In this document: positions 22,707-30,635 of the stretch, piece by piece
How the letters are laid out: the number at the start of each line of letters is the position of its first letter
Position numbering within the stretch: position 1 is the first letter of the stretch
Source: Escherichia coli
GTDB taxonomy: Bacteria; Pseudomonadota; Gammaproteobacteria; Enterobacterales; Enterobacteriaceae
Assembly (NCBI RefSeq): GCF_003018255.1
Contig: NZ_CP027440.1
Strand: one strand, 5' to 3'
Length of the DNA: 64,000 bases
Program-made: the position numbers and the translations under genes
Notes under the pieces: model-generated
Databases searched by the model: none
What the model was told of the DNA's origin: nothing
The model's input: the letters and a program-made list of their open reading frames with translations, nothing else

Positions 22707-23723
22707 TCACTCAGAATATCCATTCGGATTTTTATTTTGCCATCTCCAAGCATCAGTAATCATATCCTCAAGTGTACGCTTTGCTTCCCAATGAAGCTCT
22801 TTAATAGCTAAATCTGGTTTTGACCAACATTCAGCGATATCTCCAAGCCTTCGCTCAGAAATAACATAAGGTATTTTTATTCCGGTTATTTTTTGAAAGG
22901 CATCAATAATCTCTTTTACTGAATATCCTTTACCTGTGCCTAGGTTATAATAACGTAACCCACCGTATATATTTTGTTTTTTTAGCGCTGCAATATGACC
23001 TTCCGCTAAGTCCATAACATGTATGTAATCTCTAACTCCGGTGCCATCAACCGTAGGATAATCCCCCCCATATATGGTCAACTTCTCAAGTTTCCCAACA
23101 GCAACCTGTGTTAAATAGGGAAAAAGGTTGCTTGGTACACCATTAGGATCCTCACCAATTAAACCAGAATAATGTGCGCCTACAGGATTAAAATATCTCA
23201 AGCAAGTTGCATTAAATTTAAATTCATAATTGGTTATATCTTCAAGCATTCTTTCAACAATATATTTTGTCGTCCCATATGGATTTGTTGTTCCTCCTGT
23301 ACTGCAATTTTCGTGCACCGGAATAGCTGTAGGATTGCCATATACTGTTGCGGATGAACTAAAAATAAAATTGTAAATTTTATTTTTTAACATCGAGTCA
23401 ATTAAATGCAAAGTTCCAATAACATTATTCTCATAATACTGAATGGGTTTTTTAATTGATTCCGAAACAGATTTTAGCGCAGCAAAATGAATAACAGCCT
23501 CGATATCATTATTTGCAAACACAGAATCAATCAAGTCAATGTTGCGTATATCTCCTTCATATATAATTATTTTCTTAGAAGTCAAATACTCCACTCTTTT
23601 TAAAGCAATCTTTGAAGAGTTACTAAAATTATCAATAACAATAACATCATAGTTATGATTTAAAAGTTGCAATACTGTATGTGAACCAATATATCCTGCC
23701 CCACCAGTCACGAGAACAGCCAT
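22707..23723 (-). CDS. gne: UDP-N-acetylglucosamine / UDP-glucose 4-epimerase (GalE/Gne family)
   Basis: 338 aa short-chain dehydrogenase/reductase ORF with GGAGYIGS and YxxxK catalytic motif (YGTTK); last gene of the AT-rich O-antigen cassette next to gnd. Confidence 0.8.
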   Translation of the reverse strand: MAVLVTGGAGYIGSHTVLQLLNHNYDVIVIDNFSNSSKIALKRVEYLTSKKIIIYEGDIRNIDLIDSVFANNDIEAVIHFAALKSVSESIKKPIQYYENNVIGTLHLIDSMLKNKIYNFIFSSSATVYGNPTAIPVHENCSTGGTTNPYGTTKYIVERMLEDITNYEFKFNATCLRYFNPVGAHYSGLIGEDPNGVPSNLFPYLTQVAVGKLEKLTIYGGDYPTVDGTGVRDYIHVMDLAEGHIAALKKQNIYGGLRYYNLGTGKGYSVKEIIDAFQKITGIKIPYVISERRLGDIAECWSKPDLAIKELHWEAKRTLEDMITDAWRWQNKNPNGYSE

Positions 23724-23756
23724 ACCCTCTCCTTTAAAAACATTTTTTATAAGAAA

Positions 23757-24734
23757 CTATCTGTTTTTTACTTGATACAAGAAATGATAAACTGGAAAGA
23801 ATTTTTTAATCAACAACAAGCGAAACGCATAATACATACCAAAAGCCTGTTCGCAATTCATTTTCTGCTCTATGTTTTTCGGCAAAACTATTTTATTTTT
23901 TTTACATAAAAGGAATATATAAATCAAAAAATCATTGTATCTTTTCTTAAGATAATACTTGACCAATCTATTCTTTGTTGTTTGTATAATACATCTATAG
24001 GTTTTTAATACTTCCAGATAACCAATTATATTGCGAGAGCTAATTTTACTTGTCATTATTGAGTTTTCCCTTACCCTTCGGTAAAAATAAATCTCATCGG
24101 TACAATAACACAACTTAGAATCTAAAATAATCCTAGGTAAGTACTCTTCATCCTCATGAACTATATTTTTAAAAAATGAATTTCGCATTAATAATTCAGT
24201 TCTAAATACATTAATGCAAACAGATGAAAAGTAAGAATTGGTTGAAAATAATCTTTCTAAAAAAACATCACCAGACTTACAAATTTGAAATTTAGTTCGT
24301 TTATATGAAGGAATTTTACCTGCCAAATTAGAAGGGAGCCCTAATATTGATCCTGAAAATGCTATAATGTCTAACTCTTTATAATTAGTCAATATTTCAT
24401 TAATATCCCTTATAAACATTGGACTCAAAGCATCATCAGAGTCAAAAAAATAGACGTATGGTGTGCTAACTTTTGTCAGACCATAATTCCTAGCACTGCT
24501 TAAACCACCATTTTCTTTAGAAAATATCTTATAATTATCCTTACCCTCTATTCTTTTTTTAAGGAGAGGTATCGAATCATCACTAGAACCATCATCCACG
24601 ATGATAACTGAATGTGGTTGCATAGACTGATTTATAATAGAATCTATAGCCTCAACAATATAATCTTGGACATTGTACACAGGCATAACAATTGATATTA
24701 ATTTGGAAATCTCATTTTCTTTTTGGCAAAGCAT
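23757..24734 (-). CDS. Glycosyltransferase family 2 (O-unit glycosyltransferase)
   Basis: 325 aa ORF; N-terminal GT-A signature (ISIVMPVYN ... IIVDDGSSD); AT-rich codon usage. Confidence 0.75.
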   Translation of the reverse strand: MLCQKENEISKLISIVMPVYNVQDYIVEAIDSIINQSMQPHSVIIVDDGSSDDSIPLLKKRIEGKDNYKIFSKENGGLSSARNYGLTKVSTPYVYFFDSDDALSPMFIRDINEILTNYKELDIIAFSGSILGLPSNLAGKIPSYKRTKFQICKSGDVFLERLFSTNSYFSSVCINVFRTELLMRNSFFKNIVHEDEEYLPRIILDSKLCYCTDEIYFYRRVRENSIMTSKISSRNIIGYLEVLKTYRCIIQTTKNRLVKYYLKKRYNDFLIYIFLLCKKNKIVLPKNIEQKMNCEQAFGMYYAFRLLLIKKFFPVYHFLYQVKNR

Positions 24735-29178: not shown

Positions 29179-29784
29179 CTACACCTTAATTATTTTTTCA
29201 ATGCCATTTCTTACCCAATAAACAACTGCTTTTTTATTATTAGCCACAGCTATGGCCACATCGCATTTTTTCATCATATTAAGATCACCAAAATTATCAC
29301 TTATCATTGTGAATGATTTATTAACATCACTAATTATATTTATAATATTTTCCTTATTATTTAATAAATCCACTTTTATCTTCCCAGTTGCAACACTATC
29401 AAGATAATCCAAGCAAGTAGCATAAAAACCATTATAGTTAAGTTCTGAATAAAACTCTTCCGCGATGAAATCAAGCGTTGCTGAAACTATATATATCTCA
29501 TCAAAATCTTCCTTTTCAATTAAATTTAATACCGCGTCATTATAATGGCATTCTTTCACAAATATTTTAGCTTGTTTTCGCAGTATAGTTTTGGGAACAC
29601 CTTTAAGTTTTGCTATTGCCCAGCGCCTTAAAAGATCAAATTTCGTGAATTTATAAATTAAATATAAAGAAATAAAAATAAGAGATTTCCTTCTGACATA
29701 ATCAAATCGTTCAAGAAAAGCAAAAGTCGTATTTTCTTTAACCAAAGATCCACATAGATCCAATAATAGAATTTTTTTCTTCAT
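29179..29784 (-). CDS. HAD-superfamily-like hydrolase/phosphatase (divergent motif I)
   Basis: 201 aa ORF; N-terminal ILLLDLCGSL resembles HAD motif I (hhhhDxDGTL), but Cys replaces the second Asp; tightly coupled to flanking genes. Confidence 0.5.
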   Translation of the reverse strand: MKKKILLLDLCGSLVKENTTFAFLERFDYVRRKSLIFISLYLIYKFTKFDLLRRWAIAKLKGVPKTILRKQAKIFVKECHYNDAVLNLIEKEDFDEIYIVSATLDFIAEEFYSELNYNGFYATCLDYLDSVATGKIKVDLLNNKENIINIISDVNKSFTMISDNFGDLNMMKKCDVAIAVANNKKAVVYWVRNGIEKIIKV

Positions 29785-30599
29785 TTGCGTAAGAACTGAT
29801 TATAGATAGATGATAATAATTGTTTAGGTAATAGCCTGACTAATGAACGACCTAAAAATATTAATTTTGCACTTACCCCTTTATTAATGCCTAAATCAAC
29901 AATAAGTTTATAAAGTTCATATTCACTTTTGATATATTTTAATCCTTTTCTTCTATTGATCATTTCTTCGCCGGCACGTGCTAAAACTAATACATCATTA
30001 ACATTATCCATAGCGAAACCTGCGGCATAACAACGAAGCCACAAGTTATAGTCTTCCATAAGATAATGGTGGTTATAACCACCAATCTCAATAATTTTTT
30101 GTTTTCTAAACATTACAGTCATGTGATTAAAAGGATTTCGTTTTGCTATTGTTTTACTAATATTATCATAACCACATGGTACTTTTTTTAATTTACGTAT
30201 ATTGTTTTTTTCTGTAAACTCATCAACTGCCCCGCCAATTATTACTAATTCCGGATTACGAATAAACATCTTTATTTGTTTTTCGAATCGCTCAGGTAGA
30301 CAAATGTCATCAGTATCCATTCGTGCGACCAAATCATTCGAACATGCCTGTAGGCCAGCATTTAATGCCTTACCTAATCCAACATTCTCATTGAGTTCAA
30401 CTATTTTTAAAGGCAATTCTCTATCCCATTTTCTAACTACTCTCCATAATCCATTACTGATCGGACCGTCAATAACTGCAACTACTTCATCGATCATTGT
30501 TTTTTGTATCGCAAGACTTTTAAATGCCTCATCAAGATAAATTTCGTTTTCTTTAAAATATATAGATAATAAAACTGATATTTTTTCTATCTTTTGCAC
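29781..30599 (-). CDS. Glycosyltransferase family 2 (first gene of the O-antigen operon)
   Basis: 272 aa ORF; GT-A features (KISVLLSIY ... DTDD); the ORF track starts it at a GTG that lies within the ops element. Confidence 0.7.
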   Translation of the reverse strand: MQKIEKISVLLSIYFKENEIYLDEAFKSLAIQKTMIDEVVAVIDGPISNGLWRVVRKWDRELPLKIVELNENVGLGKALNAGLQACSNDLVARMDTDDICLPERFEKQIKMFIRNPELVIIGGAVDEFTEKNNIRKLKKVPCGYDNISKTIAKRNPFNHMTVMFRKQKIIEIGGYNHHYLMEDYNLWLRCYAAGFAMDNVNDVLVLARAGEEMINRRKGLKYIKSEYELYKLIVDLGINKGVSAKLIFLGRSLVRLLPKQLLSSIYNQFLRK

Positions 30600-30635
30600 G
30601 CTACCGCCCTTGGCTTAACAGCTACCAACACACTC
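30597..30635 (-). promoter_or_regulatory. JUMPstart element with ops (RfaH antitermination site) for the O-antigen operon
   Basis: Seen in sequence: minus strand reads gagtgtgttggtagctgttaagccaagGGCGGTAGCGTG; the 3' 12-mer matches the ops consensus GGCGGTAGCGTG (established knowledge). Confidence 0.8.

What the first reader, a model, noticed from the sequence alone, without database searches (positions are those of the whole stretch)
22707..30635. AT-rich O-antigen cassette with minimal gene content between gnd and galF
The interval between galF and gnd is markedly AT-rich by eye (roughly 30% G+C against about 50% in the flanks; not computed), consistent with horizontal acquisition. It contains no dedicated nucleotide-sugar pathway apart from a GalE/Gne-type epimerase: no rmlBDAC and no man genes. 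Three GT2 glycosyltransferases plus Wzx and Wzy predict a repeat unit of four common hexoses or N-acetylhexosamines, probably including GalNAc. I cannot assign a serogroup from memory.
Basis: partly seen in the sequence, partly recalled or inferred. Interest (0 to 1): 0.5.

Follow-up and report, generated by a model that had tools for sequence, protein, structure and literature searches.

The report
E. coli O185 O-antigen gene cluster

Summary
Window 22707-30635 has 30.3% G+C against 50-52% in gnd, galF and the flanks, lies between gnd and galF, and has no rml or man genes. It is the known Wzx/Wzy-dependent E. coli O185 O-antigen cluster: 98.5-98.8% DNA identity to six RefSeq genomes whose wzx and wzy are labelled "O185 family", and two proteins identical to reference-cluster entries.

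There are eight genes, not six. A published review lists D-ribofuranose in O185, so "four common hexoses/HexNAc" is wrong.

WbuO has no Pfam or NCBIfam match and PGAP often leaves it unannotated. It belongs to a family of at least 900 clusters. Its model has a UbiA-like fold; the best membrane match is mycobacterial decaprenyl-phosphate phosphoribosyltransferase. A HAD gene lies directly upstream in all 12 loci checked and is fused in one protein. The pair also occurs in O5 and O114, where β-Ribf is internal to the main chain.

Best reading: a PRPP-dependent, membrane-embedded ribofuranosyl-transfer module. This is inferred, not shown. The locus is known; the pair's function is unassigned in the literature I could read.

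The parts
30598..30640 (-). JUMPStart element with ops (GGCGGTAG at 30601-30608), the RfaH-dependent antitermination signal at the head of the operon
   Evidence: Read directly from the sequence: GGTAGCTGTTAAGCCAAGGGCGGTAGCGTG. The window has 6 ops octamers, all on the minus strand, against 1.25 expected.
29781..30599 (-). GT2 glycosyltransferase, 272 aa (GTG start). It travels with the HAD/WbuO pair in several gammaproteobacterial clusters. Probable Gal-beta1,3-HexNAc transferase that makes the Ribf acceptor (inferred).
   Evidence: NCBIfam GT2-type hits. 45-53% identity to the ~270-aa GT2 next to the pair in E. coli O5, L002, L005 and L006.
29179..29784 (-). Stand-alone HAD-IB phosphatase, 201 aa (WbuN-like; UniProt 'putative phosphatase'). 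Proposed ribose-5-phosphate phosphatase.
28404..29177 (-). WbuO-like integral membrane protein, 257 aa, 8 TM, N-in/C-in, UbiA-like fold. Proposed PRPP-dependent phosphoribosyltransferase.
27037..28407 (-). wzy, O-antigen polymerase, 456 aa
   Evidence: TIGR04370 weak hit. PGAP labels the 98.8%-identical gene 'O185 family O-antigen polymerase'.
26153..27100 (-). GT2 glycosyltransferase. The mechanical ORF is 315 aa; the PGAP-equivalent start at about 27049 gives 298 aa.
   Evidence: WcaA-like GT2 hits. PGAP coordinates in L001 are 9553-10449.
24712..26145 (-). wzx, O-unit flippase, 477 aa
   Evidence: NF007773 MOP flippase, E 1e-63. PGAP label 'O185 family O-antigen flippase'.
23757..24734 (-). 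GT2 glycosyltransferase, 325 aa
   Evidence: NCBIfam GT2 hits. PGAP label 'glycosyltransferase family A protein'.
22707..23723 (-). gne/galE-type UDP-hexose 4-epimerase, 338 aa, part of the low-GC cassette (34% GC)
   Evidence: TIGR01179, 440 bits, above its cutoff. GC.
30760..31653 (-). galF, upstream flank, 50.7% GC
   Evidence: ORF and PGAP annotation of the homologous locus.
21193..22599 (-). gnd, downstream flank, 50.0% GC
   Evidence: ORF and PGAP annotation.

Best explanation
The interval is the E. coli O185 O-antigen gene cluster. It is a low-GC, horizontally exchanged, RfaH/JUMPStart-driven operon between galF and gnd, and it builds an undecaprenyl-diphosphate-linked repeat unit that Wzx flips and Wzy polymerises. 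Shown here: the identity of the locus, its eight genes and its composition. Taken from the literature: O185 contains D-ribofuranose. Inferred: after WecA starts the unit (Gnu and Gne supply GalNAc), the three GT2 enzymes add hexose or HexNAc residues. The 8-TM, UbiA-fold protein WbuO (28404-29177) takes 5-phosphoribosyl from cytoplasmic PRPP at its conserved cytoplasm-facing N-D...E / Arg-rich site. It puts it, with inversion (beta-linkage), directly on the lipid-linked oligosaccharide, probably on a beta-Gal-(1->3)-HexNAc made by the co-travelling 272-aa GT2. The adjacent, translationally coupled HAD-IB phosphatase (29179-29784) then removes the 5-phosphate so the unit can be completed, flipped and polymerised. 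My confidence that this is the O185 cluster is about 0.97. My confidence that the pair is the Ribf-incorporation module is about 0.7. My confidence that it acts directly on the Und-PP-glycan rather than through Und-P-Ribf is about 0.55.
Confidence: 0.7

Rival explanations
1. The HAD/WbuO pair is a split version of the Citrobacter ORF15 polyprenyl-phosphoribose synthase. It would make Und-P-Ribf, which is flipped and used by a GT-C enzyme to add Ribf in the periplasm after polymerisation (the three-component route).
For: The domain order and chemistry match ORF15 (HAD phosphatase plus UbiA-fold PRPP transferase). The best membrane structural match is the polyprenyl-phosphate-specific DPPRS. I could not establish the position and anomericity of Ribf in O185 itself.
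Against: None of the loci examined has an additional GT-C or MATE/SMR flippase beside Wzx and Wzy. In O5 and O114, which carry the pair, Ribf is beta-linked, internal to the main chain and itself substituted. It therefore must be added before flipping and polymerisation. The known three-component systems add alpha-linked side chains. WbuO shows no sequence-level similarity to UbiA/DPPRS, whereas ORF15C is 31% identical to DPPRS.
Confidence: 0.12
2. WbuO is an acyl-, seryl- or other substituent transferase, as older annotations say, and the HAD is an unrelated helper. Ribf would be added by one of the GT2 enzymes from an unidentified donor.
For: Database and paper annotations call WbuO 'O-antigen acyltransferase' or 'serine transferase'. 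O185 has three GT2s, which might suffice for a four-residue unit, and it is not listed as one GT short.
Against: No acyltransferase family matches in Pfam or NCBIfam. The fold is UbiA/isoprenoid-synthase-like. O5 lacks the seryl group of O114 but keeps the gene. The feature shared by O5, O114 and O185 is Ribf. [quoted passage not shown] O5 and H. alvei PCM1222 are one GT short.
Confidence: 0.08
3. One reading: a minimal six-gene cassette that makes a tetrasaccharide of common hexoses/HexNAc. On this view the two extra ORFs are spurious or decayed, consistent with PGAP not calling one of them.
For: PGAP leaves 28404-29177 unannotated in RefSeq O185, O5 and L002-type genomes.
Against: The ORF is intact and translationally coupled. 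It is conserved at 30-50% identity across Enterobacterales, Pasteurellaceae and Bacteroidota, with invariant motifs. It folds with pLDDT 93.9. O185 is reported to contain Ribf.
Confidence: 0.03

Closest known systems
E. coli O185 reference O-antigen gene cluster (Iguchi et al. 2015, DNA Res; structure in Senchenkova et al. 2016, Carbohydr Res 435:58)
   Same: Same locus. The WbuO and HAD proteins are identical to BAQ02047.1 and A0A0A8J763. DNA identity to RefSeq O185 genomes is 98.5-98.8%. Gene order is the same.
   Different: Nothing of substance. RefSeq/PGAP copies omit the wbuO ORF.
wbuN-wbuO of the E. coli O114 and O5 clusters (also S. enterica Pomona O28 and E. coli 101-1)
   Same: The same HAD plus 8-TM gene pair in the same order, in low-GC Wzx/Wzy clusters. 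O5 also shares the 272-aa-type GT2 (51% identity). All three E. coli serogroups contain Ribf.
   Different: About 40-45% protein identity only. O5 and O114 also carry the dTDP-Qui3N pathway, whereas O185 carries gne and two other GT2s. Function was never determined; published guesses were serine transferase or acyltransferase.
Citrobacter youngae O1 ORF15 (PRP-PPPRS) of the three-component pentofuranose system (Kelly et al. 2024, PNAS)
   Same: A HAD phosphatase followed by a UbiA-fold membrane enzyme. The N-D...acidic motif sits in a cytoplasmic loop with matching spacing. PRPP is the proposed ribosyl source. A natural fusion also exists in the WbuO family.
   Different: ORF15C is a recognisable UbiA/DPPRS homologue (31% identity to Rv3806c), whereas WbuO has no detectable sequence similarity. 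ORF15 works with a MATE flippase and a GT136 GT-C to add alpha-Ribf side chains in the periplasm. WbuO loci lack both, and the associated Ribf in O5/O114 is beta-linked and in the main chain.
Mycobacterium tuberculosis decaprenyl-phosphate phosphoribosyltransferase Rv3806c (PDB 8j8j/8j8k)
   Different: Nine TM helices against eight. It has the canonical NDxxDxxxD motif. Its acceptor is a polyprenyl phosphate and its partner phosphatase is not a HAD.
Soluble dual-domain gPRT-PRP ribofuranosyltransferases (K. pneumoniae O4 ORF5, T. composti 7shg, Salmonella STM0726; Kelly et al. 2022)
   Same: The proposed overall chemistry is the same: PRPP to beta-Ribf-5-P on a glycan acceptor in the cytoplasm, then dephosphorylation by a HAD enzyme with an N-terminal catalytic Asp.
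   Different: The transferase here is an integral membrane UbiA-fold protein, not the soluble gPRT fold. The HAD is a separate HAD-IB protein with a DxCxT motif, and 7shg is not among its top 60 structural neighbours.

Membership tests
E. coli Wzx/Wzy-dependent O-antigen gene cluster, serogroup O185 | Located between galF and gnd, transcribed from a JUMPStart/ops element | tested here: met
   galF 30760-31653, gnd 21193-22599, ops at 30601-30608.
E. coli Wzx/Wzy-dependent O-antigen gene cluster, serogroup O185 | Serogroup-specific wzx and wzy sequences | tested here: met
   98.5-98.8% DNA identity to genomes whose wzx/wzy PGAP labels 'O185 family'. Two proteins are identical to reference-cluster entries. 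SerotypeFinder/EcOH themselves were not run.
E. coli Wzx/Wzy-dependent O-antigen gene cluster, serogroup O185 | Gene content consistent with the chemical structure of the O185 polysaccharide | tested here: inconclusive
   A review states that O185 contains D-Ribf, and there are at least two candidate initiating HexNAc residues.
UbiA superfamily / polyprenyl-phosphate phosphoribosyltransferases (DPPRS, PPPRS) | All-alpha 8-9 TM UbiA fold with a central cytoplasm-facing cavity | tested here: met
UbiA superfamily / polyprenyl-phosphate phosphoribosyltransferases (DPPRS, PPPRS) | Sequence-level membership (Pfam PF01040 or significant profile similarity) | tested here: not met
   No Pfam hit for any of 21 members. 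No PDB sequence hit. hhalign against E. coli UbiA gave probability 0.08.
UbiA superfamily / polyprenyl-phosphate phosphoribosyltransferases (DPPRS, PPPRS) | First Asp-rich motif NDxxDxxxD in the cytoplasmic loop after TM2 | tested here: inconclusive
   N72, D73 and E80 are invariant at spacing 0/+1/+8, but position +4 is Thr/Leu, not Asp. The only hhalign alignment places N72-D73 on the UbiA ND, but it is not significant.
UbiA superfamily / polyprenyl-phosphate phosphoribosyltransferases (DPPRS, PPPRS) | PRPP-dependent transfer of ribose-5-phosphate | not testable with these tools
   Needs an enzyme assay.
Three-component extracytoplasmic pentofuranose glycosylation system (Kelly 2024) | A dedicated lipid-donor flippase (MATE/SMR) and a GT-C (GT136) glycosyltransferase encoded alongside the synthase | tested here: not met
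   The window and all related loci contain only Wzx and Wzy as multi-TM proteins besides WbuO.
gPRT-PRP ribofuranosyltransferases (Kelly 2022) | Soluble gPRT domain fused or adjacent to the PRP domain | tested here: not met
   No such domain in the cluster. All 120 listed hits of the HAD profile search (149 in all) are stand-alone proteins of 190-240 aa.
gPRT-PRP ribofuranosyltransferases (Kelly 2022) | HAD-family phosphatase with a catalytic Asp in loop I | tested here: met
   D9 is invariant, and motifs II-IV are present: S101, K144, D163/D167. However, Asp+2 is Cys, and 7shg is not among the top 60 structural neighbours.
Membrane-bound O-acyltransferases (the old annotation of WbuO) | Acyl_transf_3 / MBOAT-type domain | tested here: not met
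   No Pfam or NCBIfam match at E<=10. The fold is UbiA-like.

The most novel reading that the evidence does not exclude
WbuO-family proteins (about 260 aa, 8 TM, UbiA-like fold, no Pfam family, at least 900 sequence clusters spanning Pseudomonadota and Bacteroidota) together with their dedicated DxCxT HAD-IB phosphatases could be a third, uncharacterised route for putting ribofuranose into bacterial glycans. This would be a membrane-embedded, PRPP-dependent phosphoribosyltransferase that acts directly on Und-PP-linked oligosaccharides in Wzx/Wzy pathways. It would explain the 'missing' glycosyltransferase in E. coli O5 and H. alvei PCM1222, and the Ribf of O114 and O185. Whether it also applies to O153 and O178 was not tested.
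Probability: 0.45. Interest if true: 0.6.

Novelty: already known. Interest (0 to 1): 0.3.

Why it matters
As a locus it is routine. It lets the strain be typed as O185, a serogroup seen among cattle STEC, and it illustrates the usual low-GC, laterally exchanged O-antigen cassette. The useful by-product is the overlooked gene pair. If WbuO and its HAD partner are the ribofuranose-inserting enzymes, they would close a bookkeeping gap that the main E. coli O-antigen review leaves 'with no obvious explanation'. They would add a membrane-embedded class to the PRPP-dependent glycan ribosyltransferases. They would also give a marker for predicting Ribf in unsolved glycans and a tool for glycoengineering. 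The work also exposes a systematic RefSeq annotation hole: the ORF is not called in O185, O5 and related genomes.

Tried and rejected
1. Sequence-level links of WbuO to any known family all gave nothing: Pfam on the protein and on 21 members, NCBIfam, the PDB sequence profile, and hhalign against E. coli UbiA (probability 0.08).

3. I looked for the O185 repeat-unit structure. The review's tables and supplements are not held, and Senchenkova 2016, Feng 2004 and Kelly 2022 are not held. [quoted passage not shown]

4. I looked for a paper linking WbuN/WbuO to ribose and found none.

5. I tried to assign serogroups to the related loci. The L002-type cluster is in 10 E. coli genomes but carries no serogroup label. 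L013 and L008 have no E. coli match.

6. Phage carriage: none. Plasmids: one Alistipes plasmid.

7. I considered and rejected the idea that the ORF is spurious because PGAP omits it. Its conservation and fold say otherwise.

8. The model coordinates are not exposed, so I could not check whether the invariant residues cluster in a cavity.
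Full report
OBSERVATION. A sliding-window profile shows G+C falling from 0.49-0.56 to 0.28-0.32 between about 22.5 and 30.5 kb and recovering beyond that. Computed exactly, 22707-30635 is 30.3% G+C. This compares with 50.0% for gnd, 50.7% for galF, about 52% for 10 kb on either side and 48.7% for the whole window. It is the lowest of all 8-kb windows in the 64 kb. All ORFs in the interval are on the minus strand, flanked by galF (30760-31653) and gnd (21193-22599), with ugd and wzz further downstream. A JUMPStart element with the ops octamer GGCGGTAG (30601-30608) sits directly in front of the first gene.

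WHAT IT IS. Megablast of 22600-30760 against 5,426 complete E. coli genomes finds six chromosomes. All match over 97-100% of the query at 98.5-98.8% identity, and their wzx and wzy are labelled by PGAP as "O185 family" flippase and polymerase (annotated locus L001). Two proteins of the window are identical to entries from the published O185 reference cluster: BAQ02047.1 (UniProt A0A0A8J7Q1, "WbuO") and A0A0A8J763 ("putative phosphatase"). This is therefore the known E. coli O185 O-antigen cluster. NCBIfam confirms a GalE/Gne-type epimerase (TIGR01179, 440 bits), three GT2-type transferases, a MOP-family Wzx and a weak Wzy match. It finds no rml or man genes.

The interval contains eight ORFs, not six. 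Between the first GT2 (29781-30599) and wzy (27037-28407) lie two more genes. One is a 201-aa HAD-IB hydrolase (29179-29784; TIGR01490/01488, PF12710). The other is a 257-aa hydrophobic protein (28404-29177) with no Pfam or NCBIfam match even at E<=10. The junctions are tight: a 4-nt overlap between the GT2 and the HAD, 1 nt between the HAD stop and the WbuO ATG (with an AAGGTG upstream), and a 4-nt overlap between WbuO and wzy. PGAP calls the HAD "hypothetical protein". It does not call the 257-aa ORF at all in the O185 RefSeq genome (a gap at L001 11807-12578). The homologous ORF is also uncalled in an O5 genome (L011 10101-10895 is intact) and in the L002-type genomes.

THE STRUCTURE CONTAINS RIBOSE. 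[quoted passage not shown] It also states that a nucleotide-activated Ribf has never been shown and that no responsible genes were recognised in the clusters (PMC7685785). I could not obtain the primary structure paper (Senchenkova et al. 2016). I recovered only that O185 has at least two candidate initiating HexNAc residues (PMC10920833).

THE 257-aa PROTEIN IS A REAL, WIDESPREAD, UNNAMED FAMILY. A word-indexed search finds 25 homologues at 29-98% identity, all "hypothetical" and without Pfam domains. They come from E. coli, Xenorhabdus, Enterobacter, Pragia and Mannheimia. A profile search of 1.84 billion cluster representatives finds 903 at E<=1e-3 and 427 at E<=1e-30. One homologue lies on an Alistipes (Bacteroidota) plasmid. 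In a 158-sequence alignment the following are at least 97% conserved: Y65, E66, G68, Y69, N72, D73, E80, P83, R86, N139, R142, L153 and R210. E186, Y214 and R247 are at least 88% conserved. AlphaFold2 with the family alignment gives pLDDT 93.9 and pTM 0.89, with eight long helices. Loop charges (K+R 16 inside against 1 outside) predict an N-in/C-in topology that puts every conserved polar motif on the cytoplasmic side.

THE HAD PARTNER. A HAD gene lies immediately upstream on the same strand in every locus I examined:
- the window itself;
- two E. coli types without a serogroup label, or close relatives (L002/L003, L013);
- Xenorhabdus (L004) and a related locus (L014);
- Mannheimia (L005);
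- an O5-like cluster (L006) and E. coli O5 itself (L011);
- another enterobacterial O cluster (L008/L009);
- two metagenomic contigs (L010, L015);
- the Alistipes plasmid (L016).

LINK TO RIBOFURANOSE. The pair was named wbuN (phosphoserine-phosphatase-like) and wbuO in E. coli O114. It also occurs in S. Pomona O28, E. coli 101-1 and E. coli O5. The function of WbuO is "not determined", with guesses of serine transferase or acyltransferase (PMC2905691, PMC4309606). O5, O114 and O185 share no unusual component except Ribf. The O114 structure is ->3)-a-GlcNAc-(1->4)-b-Qui3NR-(1->3)-b-Ribf-(1->4)-b-Gal-(1-> (PMC10609480). O5ac contains a-GalNAc-(1->2)-b-Qui3NAc-(1->3)-b-Ribf (PMC9912281). In both, Ribf is beta-linked, internal and further substituted, so it must be added on the cytoplasmic face before flipping. 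[quoted passage not shown] Hafnia alvei PCM1222, also Ribf-containing, has an adjacent HAD-like plus "acyltransferase" pair and is likewise one GT short (PMC4869667). I did not verify that this gene is WbuO-family. A roughly 272-aa GT2 travels with the pair in O185, O5, L002, L005 and L006 at 45-53% identity. It is a candidate for making the conserved Gal-b1,3-HexNAc acceptor; this is an inference.

MECHANISM. The known routes are two. In the first, soluble gPRT-PRP enzymes transfer Ribf-5-P from PRPP to a glycan and then dephosphorylate it, giving beta-Ribf (Kelly 2022, as summarised). In the second, the ORF15-type PRP-PPPRS makes Und-P-Ribf, which is used with a MATE flippase and a GT-C for periplasmic alpha-side chains. 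The O185 pair resembles the second route in its parts (HAD plus a UbiA-fold membrane enzyme, same order, fusions exist). It resembles the first in its context and product: no extra flippase or GT-C, and beta, main-chain Ribf in sister clusters. I therefore propose that WbuO is a membrane-embedded PRPP-dependent phosphoribosyltransferase that acts directly on the Und-PP-oligosaccharide, and that the HAD removes the 5-phosphate. None of this is shown experimentally. The rivals are Und-P-Ribf synthesis for an unidentified downstream transferase, an unrelated modification enzyme, and spurious ORFs. They are weighed in the rival section.

KNOWN OR NEW. The locus itself is already known, sequenced, typed and structurally characterised, and as such it is ordinary. 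I found no accessible paper that assigns WbuN/WbuO to Ribf incorporation. However, Kelly et al. 2022, which surveyed PRP homologues and mentions "outliers", was not readable. The 2024 paper says all beta-Ribf residues the authors identified were "accounted for" by the PRPP-utilising enzymes identified earlier. I therefore rate the finding as already known and give it modest interest. Separately, I put about 45% probability on the pair representing an undescribed membrane class of glycan ribofuranosyltransferase.

Noticed in passing
window 28404-29177 (-); L001 11807-12578; L011 10101-10895: NCBI's PGAP annotation leaves the conserved 257-264-aa WbuO ORF uncalled in the RefSeq genomes examined: one of serogroup O185 (L001), one of O5 (L011) and the top-listed L002-type genomes (whose feature names include no hypothetical protein), although the ORF is intact. 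One O5 genome (H19) lists a 'hypothetical protein' there. This looks like a frequent annotation hole for this family.
   Followed up: partly
window 29179-29784 (-), residues D9-C11-T13: In all 44 partner HAD proteins aligned, the HAD motif I is D-x-C-x-T. The Asp+2 general acid/base of canonical HAD phosphatases is replaced by an invariant Cys. The consequence for catalysis is unknown.
   Followed up: partly
window 29781-30599 (-); L011 10888-11715; L002 12381-13217; L005 7776-8585; L006 7782-8609: A GT2 of about 270 aa is conserved at 45-53% identity alongside the HAD/WbuO pair in several gammaproteobacterial clusters. GT2 genes of similar size lie near the pair in L013-L015 but were not compared. 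The GT next to the pair on the Alistipes plasmid is unrelated, and L008 has no homologue.
   Followed up: partly
window 30601-30608 and 30720-30727 (-); also 43773, 49475, 56532, 57119 (-): There are six GGCGGTAG (ops) octamers, all on the minus strand, against 1.25 expected by chance. The one at 30601-30608 ends two bases before the GTG start of the first O-antigen gene, leaving no ordinary 5' leader. A second lies 120 bp upstream, just after galF. The other four lie further along the window, beyond the wcaK-wcaM genes, and their gene context was not examined.
   Followed up: no
window 31896-32891 (-): A 331-aa epimerase gene lies between galF and wcaM. In the 98.8%-identical genome PGAP names it N-acetyl-alpha-D-glucosaminyl-diphospho-undecaprenol 4-epimerase (Gnu). 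With the cassette's own gne this gives two routes to GalNAc: a lipid-linked initiator and a UDP-GalNAc donor.
   Followed up: no
window 26153-27100 (-): The mechanical 315-aa ORF of the middle GT2 overlaps wzy by 64 nt. PGAP's equivalent start (about 27049, 298 aa) is more likely. The ugd (397 aa) and wzz (344 aa) ORFs listed by the ORF listing are likewise longer than the PGAP genes (388 and 325 aa).
   Followed up: no
L007 2688-4091 (metagenome contig): The single natural HAD-WbuO fusion protein (P0089, 467 aa) sits next to a thiamine-diphosphate enzyme and a luciferase-like monooxygenase rather than in a recognisable Wzx/Wzy cluster. The contig is only 4.5 kb.
   Followed up: no
hits H5 and H6: Two of the six O185 genomes match in two pieces (97% coverage) and carry an 'NAD-dependent epimerase/dehydratase family protein' in place of the galE annotation, suggesting a variant at the gne end of the cluster.
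   Followed up: no
cluster 1 member P0178: A 63-aa partial protein at least 90% identical to E. coli O185 WbuO is deposited as Campylobacter jejuni (WP_265610815.1). It is probably contamination of that assembly.
   Followed up: no
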